A DNA stretch of 64,000 nt from Octopus vulgaris (lineage: Eukaryota), in the NCBI GenBank assembly GCA_951406725.2, contig OX597817.1, positions 156,736,001-156,800,000 of the forward strand, written 5' to 3'. Shown one piece after another: positions 1,085 through 57,534 of this stretch (positions within the stretch are counted from its first letter, which is position 1; the number at the start of each line of letters is the position of its first letter). The notes beneath the pieces were generated by a model. That model worked only from the letters and a program-made list of their open reading frames with translations, was not told where the DNA came from and ran no database searches. The translations under genes and the position numbers were made by a program.

Positions 1085-4000
1085 ATGATGAGAGTGAGGG
1101 TAAAACAAGATCAGTCGCTTCTATTATTCAAATGTTTGAGCAAACATCTGACACTGCTTTGCAAAGTTCAGCTACAGACATTGTTCGTGAAGTCCAGAAA
1201 TCAGCACAAGCAACGTTACGCAAAGAATCTCAGGAATTCGTAAAGCAAGACTCTTCTGAGTGGGTTGTCATTGACGACAGCGATCTTGATGGCTTTGATG
1301 CAGAAAAGGTGCCATCAGCCAATGGTACTTATGTTGAAACAGAAGATTCTGCTCCAAAGGTAGAAGAATGGGTAAAAGTCTCTGCTGTCAAAGAGAAATT
1401 TGAGGACAAAATTAAGAATGGCTCCATGTCTGAAAAAACTATTATACGTGAAGCCACCAAAGTTCACACAAGCACTTTAGCAAAACATAAATCTTCAGAG
1501 AAAGCTGATGATGTTGATCAACCTTACGGTGTCCCGGAACCGCCCGACGCCCACTTTAAGACTCCCTCAGATGATGAAAATCTTGAATTTTCTGAGAAAT
1601 TGAAAATGTTTACTGGTAAACATGCCCAAAATTATTATGTCACAACTCAACCTGATGAGTTATTAAGCTCTGATGAAGAAACACCAGACACTACCTCGAA
1701 AGGAAGTGAAAGGTCATACCAAACTGCATCTGAAACGAGTGAAATCCGATCTGAAACTGTAAAAGTGTCTTCTACAGGAGAGCAAAAAAGTGAAGTCGTT
1801 GAAGAACGACGCGAAAGCACTTCATCACTGATTGCCAAGTTTGAGGAAGCTACAACTCGTGAAAAGCCGTCAAAGAAAGAGGCCATGTCATTTGACAAGG
1901 ATAGCAAAGAAACAGTACAAAAAGAAGTGACAAAATCTTGGAAAACTGATTCTTCTCAAAGTGCAGTCCAGGAGATAAAGGAAAGTCACGTATTCCAAGA
2001 GAAAAAAGAAAGCATTTCTTCAGAAGGGGAAACTCCTGATTTGAAGGAATTTCCTAAAGAGAGTAAAGAAACTGTATCATCAGTTGAGAAGAGCTTCAAG
2101 ACTGAAACAACAGAAATGAAACAGAAAGTAGAATATTCTGTAGATGATGGCAAAGTAAAAGAGATCTTCACTTCTGAAGATAGCCAAATTTTATCATCTA
2201 AGACTTTGGACAAAACTATATCCTCACTTGATAAAGATATCTCACCTGAACTTAAGGATAAATCACCTTCACCAGAACCTCAGCTGAAATCACGCTTACA
2301 TGAGGCTAAAGAGAAAACTCCCTCACCAGAGCCCCAACTTAAGTCTCCTTCACCAGAGCCCCAACTTAAGTCTCCTTCACCAGAACCTAAAGAGAAAACT
2401 CCTTCACCAGAACCTAAAGAGAAATCTCCTTCACCAAAACCTAAAGATAAATCTCCTTCACCTCTTCAGCTAAAGTCAAAGTCTCCCTCACCAGAACCTA
2501 AAGAAAAGACTCCATCACCACCTCACATGAAATCAAAGTCTCCCTCGCCACCTCACCTAAAGTCAAAGTCTCCCTCACCAGAACCTAAAGATAAGTCTCC
2601 CTCACCATCTCACCTGAAGTCAAAGTCCCCTTCACCAGAACTTAAAGATAAGACTCCTTCACCAAAGTTACAACTTAAGTCTTCTTCACCAAAACCTAAA
2701 GATAAGTCCCCCTCACCACCTCACCTAAAGTCAAAGTCCCCCTCGCCACCTCACCTAAAGTCAAAATCTCCCTCGCCTGAACCTAAAGATAAGTCTCCCT
2801 CACCACTTCAGTTAAAGTCAAAATCTCCCTCACCAGAAGTTAAAGACAAGTCTCCTTCACCACTCCACTTTAAGTCAAAGAGTCCTTCACCAGATCTGAA
2901 AGAGAAGTCTCCATCACCACCTCACCTAAAATCAAAATCCCCTTCGCCATCTCACCTAAAGTCAAAATCTCCCTCACCAGAACTTAAAGATAAGTCTCCC
3001 TCACCACTTCAGTTAAAGTCAAAATCTCCCTCGCCTGAACCTAAAGATAAGTCTCCCTCACCACTTCAGTTAAAGTCAAAATCTCCCTCGCCTGAACTTA
3101 AAGATAAGTCTCCCTCACCACTTCAGTTAAAGTCAAAATCTCCCTCGCCTGAACTTAAAGATAAGTCTCCCTCACCACTTCAGTTAAAGTCAAAATCTCC
3201 CTCGCCTGAACTTAAAGATAAGTCTCCCTCACCACTTCAGTTAAAGTCAAAATCTCCCTCACCTGAACTTAAAGATAAGTCTCCCTCACCACTTCAGTTA
3301 AAGTCAAAATCTCCCTCACCTGAACCTAAAGATAAGTCTCCCTCACCACTTCGGTTAAAGTCAAAGTCTCCCTCACCTGAACCTAAAGAAAAGACTCCAT
3401 CACCACTTCGGTTAAAGTCAAAGTCTCCCTCACCAGAACCTAAAGACAAGTCTCTTTCACCACTCCACCTTAAGTCTAAGAGTCCTTCACCAGAACTTAA
3501 AGAGAAGACTCCATCACCACTTCGCCTAAAGTCAAAATCTCCCTCACCAGAACCTAAATCAAAGACTCCCTCACCACTTCAGCAAAAGTCAAAGTCTCCT
3601 TCACCAGAGATTAAAGATAAGGCTCCTTCACCACTTCACCTGAAGTCAAAGAGTCCTTCACCAGAAATTAAAGAGAAGACTCCATCACCACCCCACCTAA
3701 AGTCAAAGTCTCCCTCACCAGAACTTAAAGATAAGCCTCCCTCTCCACCTCACCTAAAGTCAAAGCTTCCCTCACCACCTCACCTGAAGTCAAAGTCTCC
3801 CTCACCAGAACCTAAAGGGAAGACTCCCTCACCAGAGCCTAAAGAGAAAACTCCATCACCACCACACATAAAGTCAAAGTCTCCCTCACCAGAACCTAAA
3901 GCTAAGTCACCCTCTCCACCACGTCTGAAATCAAAGTCTCCCTCACCAGAACCTAAAGAAAAGATTCTATCATCAAAGCCTCAACTCAAGTCTCCTTCAC

Positions 4001-7000
4001 CAGAACCACAGCTGAAAGCATCTTCCCCAGAGCCTCAGGCCTCTGAAATTTGTCCTAAGCCCTATGATGAAGAAGATTTTGAAATTATTGAGCAGGAGGA
4101 AATTTTGGAAGCCAAGATTTCCATAGAGCGCCAGACACCGTTCGAACCAGCTGCTATTGATCTTTCATCAACTGACAAGGTTTGTCCTCCAAAAGAACAC
4201 GGAGCTGAGCCACCAGATGATGGCCTTCAGACACAACTAGAAGAAGAACCTCACAAAGATACTGATTATGAAATCTCAAGGAGAGAAGTTTTTTTAGAAA
4301 AGGAATCTCGCAGTTTCTATACATCGAAGCCCGAGCCATCTAAAGACATAATCTCAAGCAAATTTGCTGACAAGGATGTGCACACCATTGTCTCCACAAC
4401 CTCTGTCAAGGAAGTGTCAACAACCATCTCTGAACACACAACCAAAGTAATTGAAGATGAAGATAAGGAAAGCACAACTATATCTAGTGAGAAAGATTTT
4501 CTTTCAAAAAACGAGATGCGATCTCCTGTATGTGATGACATACAGGAGAGTAAAGTAGTGGAAAGTGTACCTGCTGACAGTGTTGAGGTTTCACCTGTGG
4601 AGCAAAAAATTACTAGAAAATCATCGTCTGGTGAACTGTTTGAGATCTCTCGACAGGAAGAAAAAATGATTATAGACTCTCCAGAGAAACTAGAAATTCA
4701 TGAGTGGCAGACTCCAGCACCAGAAGCTACTGAACGATTTGACAGACAGGCTGAATCTATGTCTGATGAGAGTTTAGTAGAGGTTCAGCTGGATGCTTTA
4801 AAGGAAGATATTAGAGAAAAAGTGCTTGAAGAAACCCAAGAAAGAGCCGTCAAACGATTACAACAATTACAGGATGTTTCAGATGAGGAATCAGATGAAA
4901 TATTTACTCACACTGATCAAAGAACAAAAGAGGAATTCACTGAGAGGTCATATGAGGACTCCAAGAAAAAGGTATCCTCGACAGAGTCACCGGGATTATC
5001 ACCAACAGCAGACCATCTTAAAAAAGATCTGGGTGACCGAACAGAGATAACTTATGAATTCCCTGTACAAGAAGACTTGTCTTCAGATGAAGGATCCAAA
5101 GGTAGTTCTCTGGAAATGTTCCTGACACATGAAAAGAGCTGTCAGGAGGAAGAAGAAGAAGAAAAGTATACTTCACCCAAAGATCAAACCTCCGTTACTC
5201 ATGAACAACGTATTTCCACAGTAACATCAGAATATAAAACATCAAGTACATCTGAAATGATAGAAGAAAGTATCAGCAAAGAAGAGAAATCTGTGTATTC
5301 AAGTAAAATCTCCCAAGAATACCGTGTAGAAGATGAGCAGGACATGACATCTGATGAGGAAACATCTGAAGAAATCCAGGAAACTGATACCTCAAAGAAA
5401 ACAGCACCTCAGTTTAGTTCCATTCTGTCAGAGGAAGCTACTTATTTTGAAATCAGCAGGCAAGAGCAGTTCATGACAGTTGCCTCACCTGAAAAAATTG
5501 AATATAAAACACCGGCCAAAAGCGATGGTCTTAGTTTTAGTGCCGATCCTTTTTTAGTATCTAGTGCCTTGGCACATGAAACATCGGTGGAGAGTATTAG
5601 AAGCATTCCCAAAGCGGAATCTCCCCTAACTGAGCAATCTCCAAAACATGTAGCCAAGGATGACACTTCTGACCGAACTGAGGAGAAATATTCTGTTGAT
5701 CTTGCTGCTTTACAAGCAGAGTCTGATGCTAAGTTTAAAGAAACTTCGCCTCACGACTTCCAAGAAGAGAAATATCTATCGAGTGATGATGAGAGCGATG
5801 ATGATGATCATGATGATGTTGACATAATGACAGAAATGGATTATATGTCTAAATCTCAGAGTATAGATGTCACAGATGAAATGGAGAAAAGATCTGAAGA
5901 TATTACAGATAGTGGCTTTAAAAGTGGAGCAGATGATGATCTATCGAGGAGGAGTACTGACAAAGATCAAGTAGACTTTACAAAATCATTTCCTTTTCAA
6001 ACATCAGAGGAACAACTTGTTAAAGAAGAGATCTCTAACAAAGAAGTAAGGAACGAGAGTTTCAAACAAGAAACTCGAGTTCAAGAAACTACAGTTCATG
6101 AAGGCTCTATTGAGGAACGTAAAGTTCTTGACGACATAACTCCCAGCAAATTCACATCAGAATCAAAGATTATTGAAGATGTGAAAGTAAAGAGATCAGA
6201 AACCGCAACAACAGAGGAGAGTACTACCCGATCGACCACTGTCGGTGATGAAATTCAATCAATCAAAGATGAAACTCGTTCAGTGAAACAAAAAGATGTA
6301 GAGTCTGAGAGTAAAAGGGAACAGGCAACTGTAGAAGATGAGTTTCAAAAGGAAACAACTGAAGAATTAACAACTAAAGATGCCCTCAAAATGCATAGTG
6401 AACTGACTGAAGGGAAATCTCAGACTTTTGAAGAAGATGGCACCAAGATAGAAATAAGTCAAGAAAAGTCATCTGTATGTGATAAGTCATTTGAAGAAGA
6501 GATTGGGAAACAGCAGTATGAAAAAGAATCGAAAGACGGAGAAATTCAGAAAATTGAAGATTTGGAACAGAAACTGACTGAGAAAGATTCTAAACTGGAA
6601 ATTGTCACTGATACTGTCAGCAGAGAAGATGATTTCCAGAAAGAAATTAAAAAAGAAGTAGCTGTAAAGGATGAGTCCAAGCTGAGCATGACAATCACCG
6701 ATGACTTGATGGAAATTGATAAAACAGACAAAAAGTTCAAATCTCAAACATCTGAAATTGAGGAGAACGTACAACATGAAGACACTTTTCACAAAGAAGT
6801 GGTTGAATTAAAAGAACCTGAAACAGCTAGAGTTCTTGAAGTAATTGAAGGAGAAGATTCTGGGGGTGAGAGCGACCATTCTTTCATTGAACATAGTGAT
6901 GAGGAGAACGAACAAATGGAGGCTTTAACAAGGAGTGGTCATTTAATGACCTCAACAAGAATGGAAGATCTTGTTGAAGAAGAAGTTGATGAGACTGAAG

Positions 7001-8197: not shown

Positions 8198-8340
8198 GTA
8201 TATTTCACTTTGATTCTATTTATTAGTTAGGTACCATATTGCAGTAATCTTAAATGATAACACACACACACACACACACATATACACAAGCAGTTTTACA
8301 CTTGCTCTCCAATCAGAAATGTTATTAGTAAAGAAACAAC

Positions 8341-11300: not shown

Positions 11301-14300
11301 GCCTGTTTTTCTTTTGTCTCAAATCGGTGTTCAGATCCAACAATATCAAAAAACCATCTTACCTCTGATACCAACATGAAAAAAAATGCATGTAAACACT
11401 GATTTTTCTGTTTTGGATAACCAGTTCTTTTTTGTCTGGTAGTGAGTTGGACCGTATAAATCAATTGAACTTAATGATGTCTGTATGACATTTGGCGACG
11501 TCGATTCATGCAGGACTTAAACTCAGAATTATGAAATGCTGAACTAGACATGACAAAGGATCCAAGTCCAACAGCATACCAAACTTTGGCTAGTCATCTT
11601 TACCATTCTTTTATACGGATATCAAAATTCCATTGAACCAGCCCACTTTATGCTACACAGGAACAATAACAAGAATTTTATCTCCTTGTACGCAATTCTA
11701 TAAGTCCAAGTCATTTAAGACGGAATAGTTGTGTGGCTATGTAATGTGTGTACCCATCTGTGTGTGTATGTGTATTGTATTTTTTGTCATATTTAAAAAA
11801 ATGTCTGTTTTACTGTTGCTACTCTTTACTGTTTCTTTTTTTTTTTTTCAATGTTTACTGTTGCTTGTGTGTGTATATCAAGTGTCCCAAACATCTGACA
11901 GATTTCCAAATACAAAAACTGTCTATATGCGGACACTATTTCGTTGTGTATATGTGTATGTACCTTCATCTAGGTGTGTATGTTGTATGTTGGTCATCAA
12001 CATTCATGCATTCTCTTCTAGTCCATCCCATCTCAATGATTCCTTTAATTGGTTTTGGTGCCATTTATCATATAATTTCATTTCTTGTTGATTTACTTAG
12101 TCTTATCATTATTATCGTCATAACTATGGATATATCATTCCAGTCATCCTTAGTGTTTCATCTGATGATGATGTTGGTAATGGTTATGATGCTAAGTGAA
12201 AATATACCACAGCTTTTTGTCTGTTAAGTGTTTTGCATTAGGAAGGGCATCCAGCCATAAAAAGGAATGTATAAACAAGCATGGTCCTCAACTCAACTAT
12301 AAGGGTGCTTACTCCAAACTAGGTCAAGCTCAGACCATGATATCCTGTCCAGCCCATACCAACACAGAAAATGGACATAAAACAGTGATGACATAGGTAG
12401 GATTTAACCATTTAGAATTTGAACTGGGTATGTCCAGCCCATGGCCACACAGAAAATGGACATAAAACAGTGACGACATAGGTAGGATTTAACCATTTAG
12501 AATTTGAACTGGGTATGTCCAGCCCATGGCCACACAGAAAATGGACATAAAACAGTGACGACATAGGTAGGATTTAACCATTTAGCATTTAAACTGGGTA
12601 TGTCCAGCCCAAATATTCTCCCTGTTTCATGTTCAAACTTGTGAGATCCAGCTTCTGACACCTACCCTACAATTTCATTCTAAAAATAAACAGTTACTTC
12701 ATCAGAATCTCAAAGCTAAGAGATAATGCATGATTAATTCAAAACCTGATGAACAAATGAGCATTGCATATGACAGAGTAATCTGAATGCTGGAAGGCTA
12801 CGATAGGCTGATTAAAACATAACAAAAAAGCTAAGTGGTGTTAGGTCTGTTGTTTATGAACACCATAGCACCACATACAAAATATCACAAAATGCAATTT
12901 GAGAAATGGTTTATTGCAAATTCATCCAACCCATGATAGTCATCAGCAGCCAAATCCTCGTCTTTTAGTTCATGTAACTTTCTAAAAAACTGTGTTAAAC
13001 ACCAGTTTAATATTTACCTCTTTTATTTATGTGTGAGTGTGTTGGCAGTTATGGATGAAGATGTGTCACAGATACATCCTCACTGCAAAGCGGAAAGGAT
13101 TCAGTTGAATCCAAAAATATTTAAAGCAAAGCAATGTTTCCAATTGGATAGATTGAAAATATATTGTGGCTGTTGGTATTTATTCTACCTTTTCAGTTTG
13201 AATCTCAGAAACTCCAAATTAAACTGGATAATCCCTGCATGTGTGTCTGTGTGTCTGTGCATGTGTATGAAAAAGAGAGAGAGTTGCATGAAAGATGATT
13301 TCCAATTTTGTATCATTTTGTTTTGTGTGTTGTTTTTGTGCAGGTATTGACAAACAGGAGATCATATTTGAGCAGATGGTTGAACAAATTGTTTGTGAGG
13401 GAAACAAAATATCGATGCCTGATTCCACGTTACAAGATGAAGATTCGGTTTCCACTGAACCAGCGTTGATGTCATCATCTCAGTCTAGAGACAACAACAC
13501 GTATTCTAGTATCAGCAGTTCTGATTTTGGCGAACAAGTAGCTGCTGTACAATCTCAGCAACCCTGTAGAGAAGACAGCGGCTCCGATGATCGAGCTCTA
13601 ACTGAAGAAGACTTTGAACGCATGATGTCCAGTTATGAAAATGTTTATGATGGAGTGCAACTCGCTCCTGAAGTCAGCAAGTTAGCCATGAATGCCAGTG
13701 ATCTAGACATCGGAGATCGTTTTGACACAAAACAACTTGACCTACATCTTCAGCCAACTGGACGCTCTTCAAGTTATGAGCAGCTTTACAAAGAAACAGG
13801 CGAAGAGATCGCTGAAACAAGTGAACAAGCCGAGCAAGTTGTTTATTCCGCAGAGTCGAAAGAAGGTGAGTTGAACAATGTGAGTGCAGCGACTGACTCA
13901 CTTGTGTCTCAAGCTTGCTCGAAACCACAGAGTGAGCTGACATGTTTACCTGCAAAGAGGTCAGTACGATTTGATACTGACCCCAGTCAAATTCACATAA
14001 CAGTAGAGTCTGGACTAGACACTTTAGGCTGTGATGATAGCATGACAACAGAGTCAACTGACCCAGAATTTTTGATGCGAGCCTGTTCTTGGGACCCGGA
14101 ATGGGACCCGTCTAAGACCCGCAGTAGAACATATTCCGCTCCAGGGACAAAGTCTCGTCGGAATTTGCCATATGTATTCCAAGAGAAAGGTATCGTGTTA
14201 CTAATGTGCTACTTAAAAAGCAAACCATTTTCCAGTTGCCCTTGCTTGTTTCTAGTTCCAACCATATTCTCGTCACCCTGACTTCTGTGGTTTTCTATTT

Positions 14301-24300: not shown

Positions 24301-27300
24301 TAAGCTTTTTTTTTTCCCTCCAGTGTGCTAACAATTCTGCCAGCTCACAGCCTTAATGATAAATAACAACAATAATAATTCTTTCTACTATAGGCACATG
24401 GCCTGAAATTTTGAGGGAGGGATTTGGTTAATTACATTGACCCTTAGTACACAACTAGTATTTACTTTATCAACCCCAAAAAGATAAATCAAAAATAACA
24501 ATAACAATAATAATAATATTAATAATAATTTCTTTATTTTGCCAGAGGGGCTACAGATGTGGGACACTAGATAATAAACACACAGTAGGGAGGATGCAGA
24601 GTAAAAAAGGATGGGATTAGAAATATGTGTAGAAATTGGTGTTTTAGGTGCCAAAAGAGGGGCAGGTGCAAAGTCAAAAATGAAGACTTGCGTATCTCTT
24701 GTCTACAATTGCATATTCAGAGTGGCCCCTTCCAGCCTTGCTACTTTGTCCTGCCTGTCACTTGCAACCCTATATTGGGCTTTTGAAACAGCTTGCAGTC
24801 AGCCAGATTGTCAGATTGATTACCCTATTAATGGCTAGGTCTGAAACGATTGGCTCCATAAATAATAATTACATATCTGTAAGATGAAATGATAATTTTT
24901 GACCTTTTTTTTTTTTTTTTACGTGTATTCAAGGTCATATATTTATTTGCAAGGGATTGGAGAGGGCTGAATTCATGACCAATGTTTTATTTACACCAAA
25001 CCCACTTTCACCCCCACCCACCTCTCAAGTCAATGAAGGAGCAAATTTTACTCCATTTGAATCTGAACTCAAAACCTAGGATTACAGACCGACAACTAAA
25101 TACTGAAAGGCATTTAGTTTGCTGCTCGAACACAACCTGTTATACCGATATCTTAGTCAAACAGAAACACTTGAGGAAGGGAGAAACTTAAAAGAACTAG
25201 GGAGATACATACATACAAACAGTGTCCGGCATATTTCAATCTCTTTTACTCTTTTACTTGTTTCAGTCATATGACTGCGGCCATGCTGGAGCACCGCCTT
25301 TAGTCGAGCAAATCGACCCCGGGACTTATTCTTTGTAAGCCCAGTACTTACTCTATTGGTCTCTTTTGCCGAACCGCTAAGTGACGGGAACGTAAACACA
25401 CCAGCATCGGTTGTCAAGCAATGCTAGGGGGACAAACACAGACAAACAAACACACATACACACACATATATATAAATATATACATATATACGACAGGCTT
25501 CTTTCAGTCTGCCAAATCCACTCACAAGGCATTGGTCGGCCCTGGGCTATAGCAGAAGACACTTGACCAAGATGCCACGCAGTGGGACTGAACCCGGAAC
25601 CATGTGGTTGGTTAGCAAGCTACTTACCACACAGCCACTCCTGCGCCTAATCAAATGTCATCCTTAACATAAATTAACTGAAAATAATAATTAGATTTAA
25701 TTAGATTTATTTTAGATTAATTTATTGAAGTGAAAGAAAAATGGTAGGTAGAAACTTCAGGAATATTATTGGTTGTTGTTGTTGTTGTTGTTACTGTCAT
25801 GAAGAGAATTGTGAGGTGCAGGTTCAATTCTTGTCAGCAGACATAACTTTACAACTAAATCACACGCATATGCACATTTTGAGAAAGGCATGAGCATCGC
25901 ACAGTCTCGTTTCTTGCTTCTCTCTAAGCCTGAGTGAGGTTTTAAAAGCAAACTAATACACTCTCTCTTTCCCTGCGCCCCACCCCCCACCCCAGCACAG
26001 ACAAAAACAAACAACAAAACCTTGTTGCCTTGGATGGTCAATTTAGATATTTCTCTTCTTGTCTCAGATATGCCTCGTACTGACCAGCATGATGTCCAGC
26101 GAGAATTAATAACGGCTGCGAAGGATGAGGAGGAGAAGGAGGAGGAAGAGGAGGAGAACCTCAGCTCCTCCAGTTCCGAAGTAGCGCAAGTTGAAGATGT
26201 AGATTTTCTGCCAGGTAGCTGTGGAAACTGAACACAAGCATGAATTCTTTCCACGCATTCTTCTAGATGTGTGTGTGTGTCTGTCTGTTTGTCTGTGTGT
26301 ATGACTGCATTTCCACTAGACCATTTTCTTTTTTTTTTCTTTTTTTTTTTTTTTTAATGCCAACACCATCACTGCTGCCGTTGTCCCCTTTCCTGCCTTT
26401 TCTCTCTTTCCTAAAAAAAACTGACCGCTTCCACACATCTTTTTCCGCGCGTGCACAGCATCTGAAGACCACATGCAAAGAAAGAGAGAACGAAAGAAAA
26501 CGGAGGGAAGAAAGCAGTTTTGCCCTTGCACACAACTCACATCCAGACAAATACACACATATGCACACACACACACACATACATAAAAAAGAAAGCAGCA
26601 CCCCTGCACAAGTAAATACATTTATGTATGGCCACAACCTCATACACACAGTCAATTCATAGACACCATTGAATGCATATATATATGCACATGTACACAA
26701 AGACACATGTATAAGATATGCATGTATAAATTGATACTTTACATGTATTTATGTGTCTGAGTATGCATACATACATATATGTATAAATTGGTGCTTTTCT
26801 ACATAAATATATTACATGTTCATATACACTCACACATGCAGTGATAAGGTGCTTTACCAATTTTTTTCATACCTCTCTCTTACCTCTTGTTGTTGTCGTT
26901 GTTTTTTTTTACCTCATTATTTCACCTTTTTTTCACTCTTTTTTCATTCTTTTAGATATATTTTTTCCCTTTTTTTTAGAAACCACTATTACCGTTTCCT
27001 CGCTGCTACATGTGATAAAATGGTTTTAAACTTAGCCACATGTCCGTCATCATGCTTCACTGTTAATGCTTTTTCAATGTCACCGACTATATATATATAT
27101 ATATGTATACATATATATATATATATAATATATAAACAGAAAAAATTGTTTAAAAATTTCGATGTTTATTTTTCTCTTTCAGGAATTTTTTCTTTTGCTT
27201 TTGGCAGTATTTTGCATGTTTGTTTGTTTTTTCTACTTCTTCTACTTCTCGTTCATCATTTTCCACTTATCCTATAAATTCTATGTCATCTTCATGATTT

Positions 27301-27374: not shown

Positions 27375-30300
27375 TTACATGTATGCAATTGTACATGTGT
27401 GTGTGTATGTATATACATGTATATACACATGCACACACACACTATATATACACATATGAGCTTTCAGCTTTTGGTTCAATGGTTTGCTTTCTTGCAGGCT
27501 GATATTAAATAATATAACATTATATTTAATGATATAACATGATATCCAGTGATATTAAAATGGCAACATTACTCGTTCTCATGCAATTAATTTTATTGGA
27601 TAATGTGTGTTTTAGTCCGCCTAATTTCGACCGTAAGTTGGTTCTGGATGAAACACGTTAGGGTGAAGATCTTTTAATATTAAATATTCTTTCTTGAAAT
27701 CATCTCTTCTTCTGTCACCCTTCCTCTCCTTTCCAGATTTGTTCATAGATTAAGGCATTTCACTCAATTCTAGAATACTCGTTACCACAACAACCAAAAA
27801 ATGATATGTGAAAGAATTTTGTTATTTTTTCCAAAAATAGAAAATTTTCTGATGGAAATAGCATGTTTGCTTTTGTTGTGGTTTTTATTCTCTTAAAAAT
27901 TAATGAAACATGACTTTCGGGGTTCAAATTCTACATCAGATTACTGTTACCATTTAAGTAGATTTATGGTGCAGAGCTAATTGATTGGACAAACCATTCT
28001 GATCAGATTTCTGGCTGTAACCATCTTGTCTTTATTATAAGGAATTTTGTTCCTTGAGATTTAGAGCTGAAAACCTATGTTAATATAAAACTAATAATGA
28101 TTTTATTGAGAAATATTTGACTTCTAGATTGCACAGACCAACTGGCCCCATGGAGATTCTCTCACAAGTTCTCCTTTTTTTCCTTTCTCTTGTTCTACAT
28201 ACATAGGTATTTTTCTCAGTTGACTTAGCAGTGAGAAAAGGTTCTGCCATAACTAAGTATGAATTGTGCAAGTATCTTTTAAAATTTAAGAGATTTATCC
28301 TGCATATCACAATTAACTTTGCTGCTTTCTCGGATCTACGGATCTACAATATCTGAGTTTCTTTACAAAGAAACTTTCAAAGAACCAATCCTATGCTCGC
28401 TGTAAGAGCTTTAAGAATGAAAGCAAAATGACAATCACTCATAAAACACTACAAAAGCAATTACTAAATTTTATAAAGTTTTAAGCTCTTATTTATTTGT
28501 TTTTGTTGCTAATGTTTTAATTTTAGCATTTAACTATTCTCTACTGATGTAGGTTGAATATTTCTGCAAAATCAAATATTTACAGCAATTGTATTAATAT
28601 GTTTTAAAGTTATGTAGCCTTTTCAATCATTAATCACATTAATCATTAAGTTAAGAGTGGTGGGTTGACTGATGCAAAGATGTTGTTCAGTGATTTCTCC
28701 CCACATCCACTTCCCTCATTTATCATTGATAAAGGATTCTTGGGCAACTTGAGTTGTATGCCTTGCCTAAGGAGACAATAAAATTCAAGCCATATTGGTG
28801 TTTAGTTGATACCTTAACCCCTTTCTTATTGTCTCCCTATGGTTTTACTTAAATAATAAGGGTGTATTTCTTCTATATTTCCTAATTTCTCATTGGTTTA
28901 AGTTCTTTTATAATTACAGAGTAATATTCCTTATATTTATCGAGTAGATATGTAACACACACATTAAGTTTCCATTCTATTATTTTTCACTTCATTTATA
29001 TATAAATTAAGAATTGCATTGATCCCTTCTATTAACAGTTATATACTAATTCTCCTTATTAATAAGTTTTATATCAGATCAACATAATAATGTTGTAGAT
29101 CTCTTATAATTTTACTAGATCAGCTTACTAATAACAATTCATTAGATGATAATACTAACCCATTATCATCATCCTTCTCTCTAGATATTTTGTGCACTTT
29201 CATCTGACATTTCTTTCTAACAATTCACTAAGCTACTTCTATGTTATGTTTCCTAATTGTTCTGCATTCTACTCCACTGTCAGTCGAATGGTGGCAGTCT
29301 ACTAACACACTAATATCACCCTGATTTCTATAGATGCCGAGATGCGTGACACCAGTGAAGAAAAAACAGAAGAAACGGATGTGGAAGAGCAGTTCTCTCC
29401 CCTTCCTAAAAGTTCTCCTGCTTCTAAAGGTGCTCTTGATCTTAGGTTAGAAGACAAGTTCTTTTCGTTCACCCAATCCCCTGTGGAGTCCCCAACTGCT
29501 GAAATAGCAAATGAAATATCTCCAGCTCAAGATCTTCTTGACGTCAAAGACATGCAAATAACTGTTGGCCTTTCACCATCAGAGATTAATGCTAAGTCCA
29601 AGCTGGGATCTCTTTCAGAATTCTATGAAACAAAAACAACTGAAGATTTCAAAACAATGTCCAAAATAATCGCCTCGAAAACCCCCAGAGTAGAATATGA
29701 GAAAGATAGTGGTGAATCCTTCAACATCCCTAGGATTTCAACTGATTCTGATACAACTGAGGAAAGACTAGAGCTTGATAATGTAACAGAACAATCTGCT
29801 ACATCATTAATGTCTGAAGAACACGATGGAACCGAAGATGACTATAAAAGAGAAACACCTGAAGAAAGAGCGGAACGTTTATCTTCCATGGCCTTTGATA
29901 ACATGGGTTTTGCTGGTGAAGATGTTGTCGACAGTGAAATAAAGACACACTCTGATGACTTCTCTGAAGAGAGTCCAAGTCTTGCTGCCAAAGAAATATC
30001 TCCAGAAGATCTTGAAGAGAAGTCACATCAATTTGACTTCCCAGCTGTCCATCAAGAAATATGGCAGATGGGTATCCAGGCACTGGGGAAAACCAAATTA
30101 TCAGAAGAGAATGAGATGTTTTCCAGCTCAATGAAATTTGAAGAAGTAACACACAAGGTCTCATTTGAAAAAGATGATGATGAGGAGAGTGGTGCTGCAA
30201 TGTATTCTGAGAGTGAAGAAACCTCCCGTTCAGAAAGTGGAGATACTAAAGATCAGAACTCTTTCCAAGAATCTATCCAAAGGTCTAAAACATCCGATGG

Positions 30301-33300
30301 CCAATTTGAAGCTACCTCAGAAATAAGAACAGAAAAAACCATTGTAACATCATCCAGAGCACAAGTCTCTTTATCAGAAAGTCAAAGTAAAATGATAACC
30401 GAGACCAAGGTCTATCAAGCAAAAGAACCCAGTGAAGGAATTGAACTTACCGGACATGACGCCACAGAGAAAACAGCTAGACATCTTACAACCACGGCTA
30501 GTGAGCCCATTATTTCTCATCCATTCGATCAGTCTACAGTGGAAACTATATCCCCAGAGGCCAGTAGTTCTGACAGTGAAGGTTTCTATGACAAAGAATC
30601 TGGCAAAAAGTTACCTTGGGAAACTGTCCATCATTTCTCCCGACAGTTCTCTGATAACTATCTTGAACAGCAAGAAAAACAAGGAATAGTTACTGTGCAG
30701 TCAGTTGACATGGGTGTATTTTACCGGAGAAGTAGCAAAGACTATTCAAACGTAACATTTAGTGAACAAGATATCTCTGAGTCTATTGCTGAAGAAGAGG
30801 AAGAACCCCCCAAACGGGTTACCTTCACGCTTTCAGAAGATTTGGAAGAGTTTCCATCAGAAGTAGCTACAGGTTCGGATGAGTCAAAACATGATGATGA
30901 AGTTGAACAAGAAATTAGGAAACCAGATGATATCTTTGATGAGTCTGTCAAAGATCAAATTGTAGTCAAGACAATAAAAAAACAACCTACTGCACTATCC
31001 AAAACAGAAGAACCTGTCGTCACAACATCCAAGACAGAAGAACCTGTCGTCACAACATCCAAGACAGAAGAACCTGTCGTCACAACATCCAGGACAGAAG
31101 AACCAGTTGTCACAACATCCAAAACAGAAGAACCTGTCGTCACAACATCCAAGACAGAAGAACCTGTCGTCACAACATCCAAGACAGAAGAACCTGTCGT
31201 CACAACATCCAAGACGGAAGAATCTATCATCACAACATCCAAAACAGAAGAACCCATTGTCACAACATCTAAAACAGAAAAGTCTGTCTTCTCAACATTC
31301 AAGACAGAAGAACATGTTACATCTTCTAAAGGCGAGGAACCTGTCATCACTACAGTGAAGACAGAACATATAACTACGACATACAAAACTGGAGAACCTG
31401 TCATCACAACTTCAAAGAAAGAAGAGTCTGTCGTCAAAACCTCTAAAACAGAAGAACCTGTCATCACAACATCAAGGACAGAAGACATTACTATAGCATC
31501 CGAGGCTGAAGAACCTGCCTTTGTAACTTCCAAGACAGAACATGTTACAACATCGACAACTGAAGAACCTGTCGTCACAACATCTAAAACTGAAGAATAT
31601 GTTACATCTACGACTGAAGAACCTGTCATCACAACATCTAAAACTGAAGAATATGTTACATCTACAACTGAAGAACCTGTTATCACAACATCTAAAACTG
31701 AAGAATATGTTACAACATCTACGACTGAAGAACCTGTCATTGTAACCTCCAAGACTGAAGAACGTATTATAACATCTACAACCAAAGAACCTGTTGTCAC
31801 AACATTCAAGTCAGAAGAACATGTTAAAACATCCAAAACTGAAGAATGTGTCATCACAACATCTAAGGCAGAGGAACCTGTCAGTACAACAACGACAGAA
31901 GAACATGTTACTACAAAATCTGAAAGTGAAGAACCTGTTGTCACAACAACCAGGACAGAACGCATCATCACAACATCTAAAATTGGAGAACCTGTCATCA
32001 CAACATCAAAAACAGAACATGTTACAACAACATCTAAAACTGGTGAACCTGATGTTACAACAACCAAAACAGAAGAATTTTTCACTACAACATCAGAACC
32101 TGGAGAACCTGTCATCACCACCTCCGAAACTGGTGAACCTGTCGTCACAACATCCAAGACAGAAGAACGTGTCATCACAACATCCAAGAGAGAAGAACCT
32201 GTCATCAGAACATCTAAGACTGAACATTTTACTGTGGATCCAAAAGACAAATTTGACATACCAACTGCCAAAACAGACCATGTTACCACGACAACTAAGT
32301 CAGCACATGTCACTGTAACTTCCACTGTAGAACATGTCATCAAAACATCCAAGAAAAAAGATGATATTGAAGAAGCTGAGGAAGAGTCTATAGTGGAAGC
32401 CAAGAAAGATATCCTTGAACCATATGATAGGATGTCTGGAGAATATGAAGCTACTGTTTTGGCTAATATAATGGATGACCATTCTTCTAAACAAGAAAAA
32501 GCACCTGAATCACCTGATGAATTATCTAGAGAAGACACTTTAAAAGAGAAAGATCTTGAGTATGAAATGGTCTCCAAGAGTGCTGGTGACTTAGCCAGTC
32601 CTAGTGAAAGTAAGTCTTCAGACCTTTCATTAGATCTTTCCTCAGAAAAACTTCCATCAAAAGATGATCTTGATGAAGAACACCAACTTCGACCAAAACC
32701 AGACAGTGAAGAAGTGTCACCAAAATCAGGAATAATCGGTGTTGTAAGCATTGAATCTCGGATGGCCCAAAAAGAATTATTACAGGAGTCAGCAGATGAG
32801 AAGGATCGCTCCCTTTCACCATCAGTTGATAGTGATGAGTTATCAACCACTTATGAAAGTCAGGCTGAACTACAGGAAGAACTCTGGTCTGAAATCCCCC
32901 CTGTTGATCGCTATCCTGCCCCTGCCAGAAGGAAGCATTATGCTGATGGTGAATCCTCAGAAGCAGAGAAAGAATCTCCTGAAATTGAACTTTCTCCTAT
33001 TGCTGAAGCACCAGCCTCTAAAACTGACTCCGAGGAGCAAGAAGAGAGTAAGATGACAGCGCAAGATAGAAGGGTAACATTTCTATCAGAAGAGAGTAAG
33101 GAGAAGCTGAGGCAATCTATTTCCAATGAAGATTTAGTTAAAACATCAACCTCTTCCTCTGAAGTATCCAACGAACCAACTTTATTAGCTGCTTCGTATG
33201 ATTTGGATTCAGGGCATGTTTCACATATTGTGACAGCTTATGACATGTCTCCAGACACCATTGAGAGTCAGGTGCCACATCCACCGGCACCTAAAGCTAT

Positions 33301-36300
33301 TCTTTCGAGTCCTGAAGATGACGTGTTTGAAGTTGAACCTACTGTGGGAACTACTCGCACCGACGAGCCTGGCACTGAGCCAGATTCTGAGAAGAGTTAT
33401 ACCGGGCCTCAGTCTGAGGTCATCATTATAGAAGACATTTGCGTCAGCAAAGACAAAACGGGGTCGGAGTCGACGGAATCTTTACCGCCAACTCCTGCAC
33501 CGACGCCCAAAGATGCAACCACCATCAAAGATACCGTTTGTAATCTTCAAGACGCAGCCAACAAGCTGCAGACCGAAGGTCTCTTTGATCGGCAGTTTGG
33601 ATCTGTAAGCAGTGAAACTTCTGAAAAACGTCCTTCGAGTTTTGAAAAGGACTTTTCAAAAGATGAAAGCAGTGATGATGATGATGATCATGGCCAATCA
33701 TTTGAAATGGTTTCACCAACTGAAATTATTGGCTATGATCAGTATGCTGCTAAATATTTACAAGGTGGTATAGCGGGATGCATTGAAACAGCAAGTTTGA
33801 CCGCTTCAGTGGAATCCCTCTCTACATCCGGAAGTAGTTTTGCTGACCTCAGAGCTAGTGAGCCCACAAGTATGAAGTCTAGTTTAGAAGAGTTTGCAAG
33901 TGCTACAGCTTTTGTCGAACCATCCGCACCTCCAATGGAAGAAGTATGTAAGATTCCCAGTTCTCACACCATGAAACCTGATACCGATTCCTCACCAGAT
34001 CAGTCACTTTTCAGCAGTAGCGATGCTTCAGAGAAAGGTGCAGCCACTATGGATATTGTTGCCTCCAGTGTTGCATCTCCGGGTGCATGCCGTCCTGATT
34101 TGTTACCCTCTGACTCTTTTCAAAAGAGTTTGTCTACAGAGGAGATCAGTGAAACTGAAAATATCGAAGACATTGCTGCCGACAGAATCTCCCAATTACC
34201 AAATGGTCCTACAGAGGTAGATTTTCAACCAGACATCGATTCTGTGTCATCTACTGTTAAAACTGTGGTGCCTGCAGCACCACCGGATTTGGTTCAGTCC
34301 TCACCATCATATGTTATGGAAGAAGAAAAATCACAGCAGGAAGATGTTGCCATGGAACTAGAAGACAATCAGATATCGGCTGGTTCTGATGCTGCTGTCA
34401 GAGATGTCATGACCGATAGCTTGATAGAAGATGTGAAGTTGTCGGCTGAGCAACAGGAAGTCTTGGTAACGTCAGATCAGACTTTATATGAACTTGAAAT
34501 GCCAATGGAGGAAGAAGCTTCCCCTATTGAACAAGTTGGTCCAACATCAGCTACTGTTTCCATAACTGAAACTACATCATCTGTGGTTGTTAAAACAGAA
34601 GCCCCTACAGTGGAATTTCATGAAGAACAACATCGTGAGATATATCCAGCTGAAATGGTAGAGTCTAGATCACCGACTGAAATCGTTGGACTGGAACCAG
34701 TGTTAGATGACCTTGAAGAACAGCCATATGAGTTGAAGAAAGATGAAATTTATCCTGGTAAAAGAGCACTTGAGTTTGATGTGTCTAGCTATGAAACTTT
34801 GTTAGAGGAAAGCAAAGAAAGACAGCAAGAAGGAGAGACCAGTGTGGTAGAGGTTAGCCACCTAATTAGAGAAGATCAGAGGATTAATCTGGATGATACT
34901 GATGAAGAAACAGTTCAGTTTTCAGATCAACTTAAATCCGATCATGATGTAAGTTTTGTTCACACTTCAGAAAAAGTGTGTACAGACATGGTAGAAGAAG
35001 AATTTAGTGATCTAAGTAAAGATGCTTCTTATGAGCAAGTAGAACTGGCTGAAAGTAGTCTAGAATTTGCTGAGAAAGCTGAAGAAGAACTTGAAGCGTT
35101 AGCAGGAAAAACCCCCGAAATATCATTTGAACCATCTAAAGGGGAACAAGATTTGGACAGACCCATATCCCCAACACCCCAGGATTCTCAAGAAGGTGTC
35201 CTCAGTGATGATTATGAGAAGGTTAGTGCTAGTATTAGCACAGAAGAACTTGAGAAAACAGCTACAGTGTTTGTAGACTCTGTTCTTGAAGAAGCCTCCA
35301 AAGTTCAGGAGAAAGCCCAGGTATTCCCTGAACAAACAGAAGCTGAAAAGCCAATCGATGAAACAACTTTTGATGATAGCAAAGAATCTGAAAAAATGGT
35401 TGCTTTCTCATTTTCAGAACAATTTGACCCATCAATGATGTGTCGGTCACAACCAGCCTTTTTCTCGGCACCACCTCCACCTTCCCATCCCCCTCCTTTC
35501 ACGAAACAGAGGGATGATGACATGCCCGAGATCACCATCACAGAACACCTACACAAGAGTATTGACAAAGATGACTTTGTTCCATCTGGCTTTGTTCCAT
35601 CACACATGCCAGACTCTTCCTCTGAGCAGGAAGACAAAGAATCTGATGAAAAAGAATCTGGAGATGATAGTCCAAAGGGTGAAGGAATGTCCTATTTTGA
35701 AATGATTCAGGATGAAATGGAATTTGAATCCGAAGAGACCGAAAAGAACGGAGTGTCATCTCATGAACCTAGTTCTTCGGCATTCGTTATTGCTGATGCT
35801 CATGCTGGTTCAGCAAAAACATTCACCAGTGAACAAGAACTTGAATGGAATGTGCAGAAATTTTCTGAAACTCCTGACAAAGTACCAACCACTTCTTCGT
35901 TTGAAGACTCCTTTTCTCTACAAACTAAAACTGAGCCAGTTCCTATCAGTTCTTCAAAACAATTCCAAAGGGATTCTGAAACTAAAGATTCTTCTAAGAA
36001 CGGTTTCCTTGGATTCGAGCCTTCGGTCATGCATGCCACTGACATTCTGAGCCCCGAAGATATTGCTGATACATCAAGTGTGGACAGCTTTACAACAGTC
36101 GTTGGCGTAGACCAAGAAGGGGACGAGTGTGATGATGACCGCTTGGCTGATGTTGCATCGATGACATCATCAATCCATTCCGACATTTATTCAATGCATA
36201 CTGAACCAGAAGAAGAAGAACCGTATGACTGGCCATTGTTGACAGAAGAGGACAAATCAGGGGAATCTTCTCCATGTAGCGATCGTTTTGAGATGATTGG

Positions 36301-38354
36301 GAAGACTGCTTTATCGGTGATATCTGAAAAGTCTGATGAAGATCGATTTGAAATGATAGAAAAAGATGAACTGGAAGCACTCTCTGACAGCCATTCTAGT
36401 AGCAAAACCTCACCGGAAATGATATCTGCCTCACCTGGTACTGTGGGTCACACCCACGGCTATCCAAACATACGTTACGCTGGCAGAAGTCGGGAAAAAG
36501 ATGATGGGTCAGCTGCTTCTTCTGTTTCTTCGTCCTTGTTAGAATTTGAACGGTTAGAAGGTGAAATAGGACAATTTGGCTCGCTTGGATCAAATGAAGC
36601 CCACAGCCTGCCTAGCTCTTTTGACAGTCGAAACTTCCATTGGCGAGCAGCTGATCGAGATGATGTGTCAGTTGCCTCTTCATTAGGAGAATTTGAACGT
36701 CTAGAGCGACAGATTGCACTCGGAGGTTCAATTGGCTCGTTTAGTTCAATAGACAAGTTGATGCCATCAGGACAAGGTAGTGCAACAAATGGATCGATGT
36801 CATCACTGGCTGAATTTGAAAACCTCGAAAAAGAGTGCACTGGGGGTGGATACTCCAGTTCGGGAGATGATCGCCACAGTTCATCAAGTGGCCATAGCAA
36901 ACGCAGTGCAAGTTCATCGCTTGCCGAATTTGAACGACTAGAACAAGAAATAGTCATATCTGAAGAACTTGCTGCCGAAGCCAAGAAAATAGCGTCAATA
37001 TTGGAATCAGGGGAGCTGCCTGAATATCCAGAAAGTGAAAGTTTAGGAAGTTCATATCAATCAAATGGTCACATGAGGGATGTACCTGAAATAATAGGTA
37101 ATTTTGATATTGAACAGGACTCCATAGACGGAGACGACATTGATAAGGATTCACTTAGCTCTGAAGAACCCAAGATGCAAGATGTTAGTCAAGTGGCTAA
37201 AGAAGAAGAAGACGATATAGACTCATTGGACGGAGATAGCAAAGATGAACTTACTTCTAGTGTCATCTTTGTCTCCAATGCAGAAATACAAGATTCCAGT
37301 GAAATGGGTCAATTCGACTTTGATCGAGATTCTCTGCAAGGAGATGATACAGCAATGCAATTTTCTGTAGAATCTCTGCAGTTAGACCAAGATGCTTCAT
37401 TTGATATGCACAGTTCTGTTGATTCGTTAGAAATAAAAGACAAATTTAGTCGAGACATGCAAAGCTCAGCTGATTCTCTAGAACTGAAAGAAAGAATGAG
37501 CAAAGAAATGGTAGACTCGACAGATTCTTTGGAATTCAAAGACACTGTGAAAGATACTGATAAATTTGAAACAGATTCACTGGTTGATCAAGATGACATC
37601 ATGCAAACGTCTTCTGATTCACTTGATGCTTTTCCTGCACTAACACACCAAAACATCATGGAAGCCTCTTTGGAGTCTGCTCGTTGGAGTCTAAGCAGCT
37701 CTTACTTTTCCCATTCCTCACAAGAAACATTACGATCTGAATCCCACAGTGACTCAAGCCATTCTAGAGATGTCATGCAAATGTCTGCAGAATCTGTAGA
37801 TTTTGATAAAGATAGAAGATTTGAAAGTTCCGATACCGAAATGGATTACAAGACGGTATCAAGTAAGACATTAACATCATCTGCTTTAGATCCCGAAATC
37901 CGCATGATCACAGGAATATCTCATCCCAACAATCCTTTCTTAGATAATGAAGGCAATGTTAGGACAGATCTGGGGTATCCGGGCCACTTTAGAAATAAAT
38001 ACGAATATTCAAAGTTTGATAAAGAAGGGAACTACCGTTGGAACACCGAGTTTGAAGAAACAACCAGAAACAACTCATACCTTAACTGGGGTCCTTATCA
38101 AGAGAAAAAGAAGGTTTACACCATGACGGAATGGGAAGCCATGCGCAACGCTAAAAAGAGAAGTGCTGATAATGAAGAACTTGGCGGGGACAGTGAACAA
38201 GTGTCTGTCATTCCTGACAATCACTTTGCCCAACTTAACAACAAAGAAGTCTCTTCTAACCTTCCTTCTGAGCACACAACTTCCCACCCTAGAACTTCTT
38301 CACCTCCTCCTTCTACCGTTTTACGGCCTTCTTCTCCTGTTTCCTCTACTACTG

Positions 38355-38386
<32 letters not shown>

Positions 38387-38865
38387 TATTACTCCTCTTC
38401 CAATTCCTCCTCCTCCTCTTCCTCAACCTATCATGCTGCTGTGACTCGGCCTGACTCCAGCTCCACCAGTCAAACTGCTGCTACCTCCGATCCTCTGCTA
38501 TACCATCACAGTATGTCGGACACTACTACTACTACTACTGTCCATAAATCCAGTAGAGGTATATCTAACTGTTAGACGTACAGCCAGTGTACAGTCACGC
38601 TGCATGATCTCTAGCCTAACAAGTTGCATGTCAGCCTGCTAATTTGTTGTCTTCTACATGCTATTGTTGTTGTTGTTGTTGTTGTAGTAGTTGGTGTTGT
38701 AATGTAGTCAATTAATTCAGTATGCTATGTTTTTGTTGCAGGATCAGCCTATTTTCCTTTCACACACACACACACACACACATACACAAACACACATGCA
38801 CATTCAAGTGTCTGTAATCATGTATGTATGTGTGTGTGTGCAATGTGTTTACATTATATATCTAT

Positions 38866-42418: not shown

Positions 42419-44469
42419 TATGCTTACCTATGTATACATGTTTGTGTGTGTGTATAACTGAGCTTATTTAAAATTTTTAAATATATTTTGCTTATTGCAT
42501 TTTACTAGTTTTCAGACATTAAACGATAAAAATAATAATTTTCTTTTTTAGCTTCAGAAAATACCATCTAAAGCTGGACTGAATAAAGCTTAAAATATAT
42601 ATATATATATATAAAAATGGGGGAATGAGATAGCTAATTCATTAATATTTAAATAGGAGATATGATGATATGTATATTAATATTTAAATAGTGGAAACCA
42701 TATTACAATTGATTTCTTTACTGCTATTGACTTCACTGTTATATATGATTTATATATGTATATACACGTGAAATGTACATGTATATATAATATGAGTGTA
42801 TAAAATTTATACACAGAGAGAAGACCACTATGAGGTCTTCTTACATACTAAAAAGGGCAGTCAAATTCCCAAACCACAAAAGAACATTCTAAATAAGAAT
42901 GTTTCGTATGCATGCTAGCCAATAGCACAAATTATTATTTTTAATAATTTTTACCCTTTATAGTTGTATTTATATATATTTATATACATATACATACACA
43001 AGTATGAGGCACAAGCTCAGTGACTTTTGGTGGACTTAGCCGTTTGATAAATAGTAATCTGTACAGTATCAATGTACTGGAGAGTGAATTATTCAACTAA
43101 AACCCCCAAAGTCCATTTGCAAGATAAACTTTGTTCTGAGGCTGAACCAACATATTTGAACTTCTGATAAGCTAATCCTGTATCTCTCAGCCATCTTGCC
43201 TTCGTCTGTCTCTACATAAGTATGGCCATGTGGTTAAGAGGTTCATATCACAACTACGAGGTTCCAGGCTCAGTCCTATTGTGCAACATGTGGAGACAGT
43301 ATCTTCTGCTGCATTCTTCTAGTTGACCAATACTTTACAAATAGAATTTCGGTAAACAAAAATTGTATATATGCATGTTTATGTGTGTGTGTGTGTACCA
43401 AAGTATTATATCCCTTTATAAAAAGCTAACTTAACTGTTCAACAAATAGAGATCAATAAAATAAATGCCGGACTGATATCAGTACACTGGGAATCGATGT
43501 GATCAACTAAAACTCTTGACAGTGGTACTCCAGCATGGCAGCAGTCCAGTGACTGAAACCAGCAATAGAATAAACGAATGTATTTTGTGTGTGTATGTGT
43601 ATGTATGTATAATACATATGTGCGGGCTTGTGTGTGTGTTTGTGTGTACTTATATGTAATCAACTATTGCACTTTGCTTATTGACCAATGGTCATGAGGT
43701 GACGATGGAAGGGAGTTCAGAAATTTGTGGTAGACCAGTCTGTACTTGAACCAGGAACTGTTTTGTCTTTCAGAACACACAGATTTGCCACAACAGATGT
43801 CCACTGAAGAATCACAGAGCAAGACAGAAGGTGATTTGAACTAGTCAACTTAATTTTATTAACATTTGTTGGATTTTTTTCTTAGTTTTATTTTAGTTTG
43901 TTCTTCAGGGAGGGGTTTCTATTTTCATTCAGTTTTTTTGTTTTGTTTTTTGGTTTTGTTTTGTTTTGTTTTTTTACCATATCAGTTCCATACATATATA
44001 CACTTTGAAACATATACACACACAAACACACGCACTTCAAAATTGTATGTGTCTCGTGCTTGAGAAGAAGACCCATCAAGCTGAGGCAAATCGCATTCAC
44101 GGCAGATGCTGGTGTCACACAAATGGCACCTGTGCCGGTGGCACATAATAGCACCCGTTAGACTCTCAGAGTGGTTGGCATTAAGAAGGAATTCCAGCCA
44201 TAGAAAACCATGCCAAATCAGACTGGACTCTGGTGCAGCCTTCCAGCTTACCAGCTCTGGTCAAACTGTCCAACCCATGCCGGCATGGACAACGGACGTT
44301 AAATGATGATGACCTTTGAAATGTTAATTGAAATATACAATCGGCAAAACACACACATACACACATGTATATGATGAATATACATATACACATGCATGCA
44401 GACATACTTTCATTTATATACAACGTAAATACCCTTCATCATTTCAACGAAATATAAAAAGCATCAACT

Positions 44470-44500
<31 letters not shown>

Positions 44501-56841: not shown

Positions 56842-57534
56842 TTAAAACTGAAAGGCTCTGGCTTTCAGTACTCAGATTTTCTGGTTTCCAATCATCAAGT
56901 ATTACCTTCCGACTTCCATAAAATATTTAGACAGTGGCTATTCAAAAGAAAATAATTACAGTAAAATCGGTCTTATTTCTAGGTTTGGAGAGAAGTAGAA
57001 ATGACTTGGACTGAAGTCCATCAGAAAAAAAAAAAAAACAGTAGAGAAAGAACAGGAGAGAGAAAAACAAAGTTAAAAACAGAGCTCTGAGAAGTCATGT
57101 TGCCTATGTTAGAGAGATTTTAAATGTGAGAGAATTAGATAAATGAGAAGAAAACAACTTTCAGCAATTAGTGAGACACTGCATGGAGAACTGTGTTGAC
57201 GTTTCAGATTAGTGTGTGAATATAAGACATGTATATATATGTTCATATGTGCCAAGGACATCTGCATTATTTGGGTATGTCTGTACTTCTGGGGGTAGTA
57301 TGTGTATATAGGTACACAGATGTGTATGTGCTAAGGACATGTATGTATAAAAGTTAAATTTGTGCACATGTCTGAAAATGTAAAGAAACTGAGATTGAGA
57401 CTTAAGTTTGAGGGATGAAAGTTCTAAAAAGAATAAGAGTTACTGTACTACCAAGGGGTGAACGATCCAACAAGCAAAACAGGACTGAAAGTGGGTAAGT
57501 ACAAATGGCATACAACCCATTGAGCTGGATATCT

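What the first reader, a model, noticed from the sequence alone, without database searches (positions are those of the whole stretch)
4066..4116. Extended LIR motif DEEDFEIIEQEEILEAK matching the AnkG/AnkB high-affinity Atg8-binding pattern
Seen: an acidic lead-in, F-x-x-I core, then E-Q-E-E-I-L-E-A-K. Known (recalled): vertebrate giant AnkG (DDWxEFSSEEIREARQ) and AnkB (WVIVSEEEIEEARQ) bind GABARAP/LC3 very tightly through a LIR core plus a C-terminal amphipathic helix, with E at +7 and I at +8. This peptide aligns without gaps, including EEI.EA[RK]. Inferred: the giant-ankyrin/Atg8 link exists in a mollusc, by deep homology or convergence. This is also the best sequence evidence for the gene's identity.
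Basis: partly seen in the sequence, partly recalled or inferred. Interest (0 to 1): 0.85.

Follow-up and report, generated by a model that had tools for sequence, protein, structure and literature searches.

The report
Atg8-docking motifs in octopus giant ankyrin
The peptide is real and sits in a giant exon of the octopus ankyrin gene, where it likely docks the autophagy protein GABARAP/LC3, but it was found only in Octopus, while two sister motifs in the next giant exon are kept in a mussel and many other relatives and are the better lead for a shared ankyrin-Atg8 link.

Summary
The peptide is there. It lies in a 7.1-kb exon (1085-8197) of the canonical ankyrin gene; ZU5, UPA and death-domain exons lie 94-125 kb upstream on the same strand, and an O. 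bimaculoides RefSeq model joins them to it. Those domains, not the motif, identify the gene. [quoted passage not shown] But the exon lies after the death domain, unlike vertebrate AnkG/B; the only non-Octopus orthologue of the exon lacks the motif; and the AnkB-like tail is in none of 88,866 residues of relatives. Convergence is likelier than descent. New here: two motifs of the same class in the second giant exon (33701, 36347) are conserved in Mytilus and unnamed relatives (15 of 24 versus 3.3 expected; 22 of 30 versus 0.7). Binding is untested. Fly Ank2 is already a reported Atg8a two-hybrid hit.

The parts
4066..4116 (+). The finding (LIR-1): acidic lead-in, core FEII, E at +7, I at +8, A at +11; predicted helix +5 to +16
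   Evidence: identical in O. bimaculoides; absent from P0003
1085..8197 (+). First giant exon (L1) of the ankyrin gene, downstream of the death domain; AG acceptor at 1083-1084, GT donor at 8198
   Evidence: RNA-like contigs of three studies cover 4010 to 8197/8201 and stop at the donor while the DNA run goes on
2242..4007 (+). KSPSP-type tandem repeat array (27/57-nt units) immediately before the motif
1249..1296 (+). LIR-0: second candidate in L1, core WVVI with D at +7, L at +8, F at +11; a glycine in the tail; conservation outside Octopus not testable (P0003 lacks this part)
13344..13936 (+). Next exon of the RefSeq model (RNA contigs cover 13341-13865)
26067..26213 (+). Small exon between the two giant exons
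29334..38558 (+). Second giant exon (L2), 95% identical to O. bimaculoides; orthologous stretch present in the Mytilus trossulus ankyrin P0019
33689..33736 (+). LIR-3: core FEMV, E at +7, I at +8, serine/proline before the core and GY after it in relatives; outside the search query
   Evidence: motif class in 15 of 24 testable relatives versus 3.3 expected, 13 of them by eye at this same site
36287..36382 (+). LIR-2: tandem cores FEMI ... FEMI; the second (F at 36347) has acids before it, E at +7, L at +8, L at +11 and a predicted helix +5 to +15
   Evidence: (22 of 30 anchored relatives versus 0.7 expected)
43773..52225 (+). Three last small exons of the RefSeq model (43773-43829, about 49340-49399, 52019-52225 with the stop)

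Best explanation
The peptide lies in a giant exon of the octopus ankyrin gene and is likely an extended LC3-interacting region that docks GABARAP or LC3, probably a lineage-restricted extra copy of a motif class whose conserved copies lie in the second giant exon. Shown: the gene, the exon, the peptide, the conservation pattern. Inferred by analogy with solved complexes: F and I(+3) enter the two hydrophobic pockets of the Atg8 protein, the upstream acids meet its basic surface, E(+7) pairs with R67, and a helix from +5 lays I(+8)/A(+11) on helix 3 (F62, L63). The giant isoform would thus carry three or four such sites along a disordered tail and could tether Atg8-coated membranes or receptor-trafficking machinery multivalently. 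The likeness to AnkB is best read as convergence on the binding rules of a nearly invariant partner. Ile at +2 would permit LC3 as well as GABARAP, whereas Met at +2 in LIR-2 and LIR-3 would favour GABARAP (rule from PMC7615515 section 12).
For: All class features listed in PMC8727931 are present: core, acid at +7, hydrophobe at +8 and +11. AlphaFold2 on the lone peptide leaves the core extended and makes +5 to +16 a helix (single sequence, weak). Strict pattern under 1% by chance (post hoc). A matrix built from 26 non-cephalopod LIR-2 instances ranks this peptide first in its ORF at 15.0 bits; the best of 300 shuffles is 11.7 (partly circular, and 2 of the 26 are near-copies). The same motif class is enriched in relatives' giant exons, 51 seen versus 10.2 expected over 44 proteins. 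The genome's GABARAP keeps K46, K48, Y49, L50, D54, F62, L63, R67, F104. The exon is covered by RNA-like contigs in three studies. Fly Ank2 is an Atg8a two-hybrid hit (review). For convergence: exon position after the death domain versus before it in vertebrates, and no detectable homology among long exons of distant phyla (PMC5135030).
Against: No conservation signal for this copy: uninformative in O. bimaculoides, missing in P0003, no further orthologues in three searches, none in the one Mytilus isoform scanned. The hydrophobic moment of the tail (0.79) is ordinary for this ORF (median 0.71, 75th percentile 1.0). [quoted passage not shown]
Confidence: 0.55

Rival explanations
1. Chance match: an acidic, fast-changing stretch next to a repeat array resembles a LIR but binds no Atg8 protein in vivo; only LIR-2 and LIR-3, if any, work.
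For: Not retained in P0003; loose patterns are common in shuffles; no PDB match; unremarkable amphipathicity.
Against: The strict pattern is rare by chance, and the peptide is the best match in its exon to the conserved LIR-2 matrix, in a protein family whose vertebrate members use such a motif.
Confidence: 0.25
2. Deep homology: this peptide descends from the same ancestral giant-exon LIR as AnkB/AnkG and binds with nanomolar affinity.
For: 8 of 16 identities with ANK2 including the helix tail (by eye). PMC5135030 argues for a single origin of the long exon with one change of position.
Against: The relaxed tail pattern is in none of 88,866 residues of non-Octopus relatives; a 550-million-year-old motif (age recalled) should not be missing from the closest non-Octopus orthologue; F rather than W at position 0; the core is closer to ATG4B and FYCO1.
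Confidence: 0.12
3. The F-E-h-h motifs are real binding sites for another partner, such as the FIP200/RB1CC1 Claw domain (FIR motif) or an unknown adaptor.
For: The FIR consensus (acid/S/T, acid/S/T, hydrophobe, x, x, I/L/V) overlaps the LIR consensus and fits this peptide (PMC7615515 section 12). LIR-3 has a proline at +5 and a glycine in its tail, poor for a long helix.
Against: The conserved acid at +7 and hydrophobe at +8 in LIR-2 and LIR-3 are the Atg8 R67/helix-3 contacts and are not part of the FIR consensus.
Confidence: 0.08

Closest known systems
Human ankyrin-B (ANK2) extended LIR, residues 1588-1613; ankyrin-G (ANK3) LIR 1985-2010
   Same: Same gene family; motif in a giant exon; aromatic(0), aliphatic(+3), E(+7), I(+8), A(+11); 8 of 16 identities with ANK2.
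   Different: F instead of W; exon after, not before, the death domain; several candidate sites instead of one known site; affinity unmeasured (AnkB 0.2-0.3 nM for GABARAPs, table in PMC7564214).
FAM134B / SEC62 / Ede1 and FYCO1 'LIR core + C-helix' motifs
   Same: F core, Glu at +1 as in FAM134B, acid at +7 and hydrophobe at +8 (PMC8727931); FYCO1 core FDII. LIR-2 and LIR-3 in relatives keep +7/+8 but mostly not +11, the FAM134B-type category.
   Different: Those are ER-phagy receptors or adaptors, not ankyrins; no homology implied.
Drosophila Ank2 - Atg8a interaction
   Same: Protostome giant ankyrin reported to bind an Atg8 protein in a two-hybrid screen (review PMC7615515 citing Tsapras 2022).
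   Different: I could not read the primary paper, so the site in Ank2 and any validation are unknown to me; no named arthropod protein was among my hits.
Bilaterian giant ankyrin long exons (Jegla 2016, PMC5135030)
   Same: Long Ser/Glu-rich exons after the death domain, two tandem long exons as in Aplysia, lineage-specific repeat array.
   Different: The main text has no occurrence of 'GABARAP' or 'Octopus' and reports no homology between distant long exons; here short motifs are conserved across diverged relatives.

Membership tests
Canonical giant ankyrin | ANK repeats - ZU5-ZU5-UPA - death domain in one gene with the long exon | tested here: met
   ZU5, UPA, death exons in order on the same strand 94-125 kb upstream, 93-100% identical to the RefSeq protein P0004 that also contains both giant exons; ANK repeats seen in P0004 (16 TPLH-like motifs) and in the Mytilus orthologue; the ANK exons were not mapped in G000.
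Canonical giant ankyrin | Long exon is transcribed and spliced | tested here: met
   Contigs of three runs guessed to be RNA end at the donor and resume at the next exon, DNA run covers the intron; the joint itself was not among the rows shown.
Extended LIR (core + C-helix) | [WFY]-x-x-[LIV] core with acidic residues before it | tested here: met
   DEED-FEII
Extended LIR (core + C-helix) | Acid at +7 and hydrophobe at +8 or +11 | tested here: met
   E+7, I+8, A+11 (definition from PMC8727931)
Extended LIR (core + C-helix) | Amphipathic helix after the core | tested here: inconclusive
   Helix +5 to +16 predicted from one sequence; hydrophobic moment not above background
Extended LIR (core + C-helix) | Lies in a disordered, accessible region | tested here: met
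   No Pfam domain in the 2387-residue ORF; S/E/K/D/P/T-rich composition. Disorder inferred, not predicted by a dedicated tool.
Extended LIR (core + C-helix) | Measured binding to an Atg8 protein through the LIR docking site | not testable with these tools
   Needs ITC, pull-down or a structure
Orthologue of the vertebrate AnkB/AnkG LIR | Giant exon between UPA and death domain | tested here: not met
   Death domain lies 2.4 kb after UPA and 94 kb before this exon
Orthologue of the vertebrate AnkB/AnkG LIR | Motif conserved in intervening lineages | tested here: inconclusive
   Absent from P0003 (possibly truncated) and from all non-Octopus hits; no deuterostome invertebrate or arthropod ankyrin was available
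GABARAP-interacting motif (W/F)-(V/I)-x-V | V/I at +1 and V at +3 | tested here: not met
   FEII has E at +1, I at +3 (definition)

The most novel reading that the evidence does not exclude
Atg8 binding through extended LIRs is an ancestral function of the bilaterian giant-ankyrin exon: lophotrochozoan giant ankyrins keep an array of such sites (LIR-2, LIR-3, plus lineage-specific extras such as this AnkB-like peptide), the first sequence-level link between long exons thought to share only length and composition, and the vertebrate AnkG/AnkB-GABARAP interaction is its descendant.
Probability: 0.3. Interest if true: 0.7.

Novelty: new member of a known kind. Interest (0 to 1): 0.45.

Why it matters
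Whether invertebrate giant ankyrins do the same jobs as vertebrate AnkG/AnkB is open, because their long exons share no detectable homology (PMC5135030). A short motif class that is conserved in these exons and predicts one known partner makes the question testable with three or four peptides and one small protein. In mice the AnkG-GABARAP contact stabilises GABAergic synapses (bioRxiv 10.1101/307512); an equivalent in cephalopod neurons would date that mechanism, or show repeated invention. The single peptide flagged is the weakest of the leads for that purpose.

Tried and rejected
Complex prediction of the peptide with a GABARAP stand-in (L041:75-425, 65 of 66 residues identical to the genome's own second exon) gave no answer: 0.25 and 0.26 against a mark of 0.34, controls not folded, peptides and disordered chains untested for that tool; no evidence either way. 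PDB sequence searches with the peptide: nothing at E<=10. Pfam on both giant ORFs: 0 families. ESM Atlas on the L2 block: best 0.79, growth-hormone-receptor tails, below the lead threshold. Three homologue searches for exon L1 (701-2000, 1312-4178, 4179-5000 residues) returned only P0003; proteins above 5000 residues were not searchable that way. O. bimaculoides identity rejected as conservation evidence. The count of 3 for the strictest pattern was one site counted three times and is replaced; the counts (25 of 36) included five near-copies and are replaced. A profile of the conserved motif was not searched against solved structures, so the closest solved peptide of LIR-2 stays open. The tree is the quick version only and serves just to show two groups of hits. 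The supplementary sequence table of PMC5135030 was listed but not opened, as cells are cut at 400 characters; it holds fly, worm, echinoderm and tunicate giant exons that bear on the homology question. Tsapras 2022 not held. Earlier scan findings: none.

Full report
Observation. Bases 4066-4116 on the + strand read DEEDFEIIEQEEILEAK, residues 1002-1018 of a 2387-codon open frame at 1063-8226, just after a KSPSP-type repeat array at 2242-4007. A second open frame of 3089 codons lies at 29306-38575. Neither has a Pfam domain.

Gene. The window is G000:C4:156736001-156800000. On the same strand upstream lie a ZU5 exon (156610874), two UPA exons (156638254-156640116) and a death-domain exon (156642494). 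The representative search with the conserved block of the second frame returned 46 proteins, the best being O. bimaculoides XP_052823414.1, 7515 residues. That model contains these ZU5, UPA and death exons at 93-100% identity and maps onto seven window exons, including both giant frames. Splice signals put giant exon L1 at 1085-8197 and L2 at 29334-38558. Contigs of three runs from three studies, guessed to be RNA, cover 4010 to 8197/8201, stop at the donor and resume at 13341, while a DNA run continues into the intron (the joint itself was not among the rows shown). So this is an expressed giant ankyrin of an Octopus species (genus inferred from 95% identity), with both long exons after the death domain, the protostome arrangement; vertebrate AnkG/AnkB carry theirs before it (PMC5135030, sections 8 and 9 part 1 read). 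The motif is not needed to name the gene.

Is the motif more than chance? Plain LIR cores are not enriched (11 seen, 13.9 expected). Core plus acid at +7 plus hydrophobe at +8 turns up in about half of shuffles. Against the human ANK2 peptide printed in bioRxiv 10.64898/2026.01.05.697675 (passages) 8 of 16 positions are identical by eye, mostly in the helix; the core itself is closer to the ATG4B and FYCO1 LIRs printed there. [quoted passage not shown] AlphaFold2 on the lone peptide leaves the core extended and builds a helix from +5 to +16, though its hydrophobic moment is ordinary for this frame. The genome's GABARAP keeps the pocket residues and R67, F62, L63, and the genome has GABARAPL2-like and LC3-like genes too (subfamily labels by my reading).

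Conservation of this copy. It is identical in O. bimaculoides, but so are 767 of 1404 windows of that length. The only other orthologue of exon L1 found in three searches is unnamed P0003, about 43-44% identical over some 1270 residues; the alignment starts about 190 residues after the motif, the syntenic stretch is a different repeat, and the protein holds no motif of the class. P0003 begins at a methionine and may lack the exon's first part, so this is a real but incomplete negative. The AnkB-like tail, even relaxed, is in none of 88,866 residues of non-Octopus relatives.

What is conserved instead. Exon L2 holds two more motifs of the class [FYW][ED]x[ILV]xxx[DE]-hydrophobe. LIR-2 (F at 36347) meets the same strict pattern and gets the same core-then-helix prediction. 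Of 44 non-Octopus hits, 14 were dropped for lack of an anchor; 22 of the other 30 carry the motif in the anchored interval, against 0.7 expected. The query contained this site, so that count is biased upward. LIR-3 (F at 33701) lay outside the query: 15 of the 24 hits long enough to test carry a motif in that interval against 3.3 expected, 13 by eye at the same site. Over all 44 hits the class is seen 51 times against 10.2 expected. One hit is a named bivalve ankyrin, Mytilus trossulus XP_063445929.1, with ANK, ZU5, UPA and death domains and both motifs. A matrix from non-cephalopod LIR-2 instances picks the finding as the best site in exon L1 (15.0 bits; best of 300 shuffles 11.7; partly circular).

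Mechanism. By analogy with solved AnkG/AnkB/FAM134B complexes, F(0) and I(+3) would fill the two pockets, E(+7) would pair with R67 and the helix would pack on helix 3. With three or four sites on one disordered tail the giant isoform could bind Atg8-coated membranes or trafficking complexes multivalently. Met at +2 in LIR-2 and LIR-3 would bias them to GABARAP and Ile at +2 in the finding would admit LC3 (PMC7615515 section 12). None of this binding is measured. I put 0.55 on a working, lineage-restricted, convergent site, 0.25 on chance, 0.12 on descent from the AnkB/AnkG site and 0.08 on another partner.

What is known. Giant ankyrins in molluscs are published (PMC5135030). Extended LIRs occur in many unrelated proteins (PMC8727931). 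Fly Ank2 is listed as an Atg8a two-hybrid hit in PMC7615515 (passage); the primary paper and Li 2018 were not read. PMC7564214 and bioRxiv 10.1101/307512 were seen as passages. Nine full-text searches listed no paper on a LIR in a mollusc or other lophotrochozoan ankyrin; the library lacks most subscription papers, and unread supplements of PMC5135030 hold the sequences needed to extend the test.

Verdict. Observation confirmed, interpretation partly supported. A new member of a known motif class in a known gene family; the conserved sister motifs in exon L2 are the part worth following. Interest 0.45.

Noticed in passing
window 36533-36950 (+): Four S[LV]xEFE[RN]LE repeats and, upstream, the blocks around SSSVDSFTTVV and DRLADVASMTSS are the most conserved parts of exon L2 across the hits; function unknown, the repeats are predicted-helix-like and may be a separate binding module.
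   Followed up: partly
window 4267, 4639, 5446 (+): Three [FY]EISR motifs in exon L1 have counterparts at matching places in P0003, so they are conserved where the finding is not; they are not LIR cores (S at +3).
   Followed up: partly
P0003 residues 1-150: The other orthologue has an FSSVD repeat array where Octopus has the KSPSP array; each FSSV is formally a LIR core.
   Followed up: no
window 1249-1296 (+): WVVI core with acid at +7 near the start of exon L1; closer to the AnkB core (W-V-x-x) than the finding is.
   Followed up: partly
   Followed up: no
window 61373-63998 (-): Reverse transcriptase, RNase H and integrase-like frames of an LTR retrotransposon, interrupted by a stop and a frame change (identified by eye from recalled motifs).
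   Followed up: no
window 57402-57893 (-): Mariner-like transposase fragment (by eye).
   Followed up: no
window 44728-45681 (+): Open frame with a YDGGDAT repeat inside an intron of the RefSeq model; possible alternative exon or minisatellite.
   Followed up: no
G000:C4:401862-403157 (L002, L010): A second ZU5 plus death-domain gene on the same contig in a single 656-codon frame, not studied.
   Followed up: no
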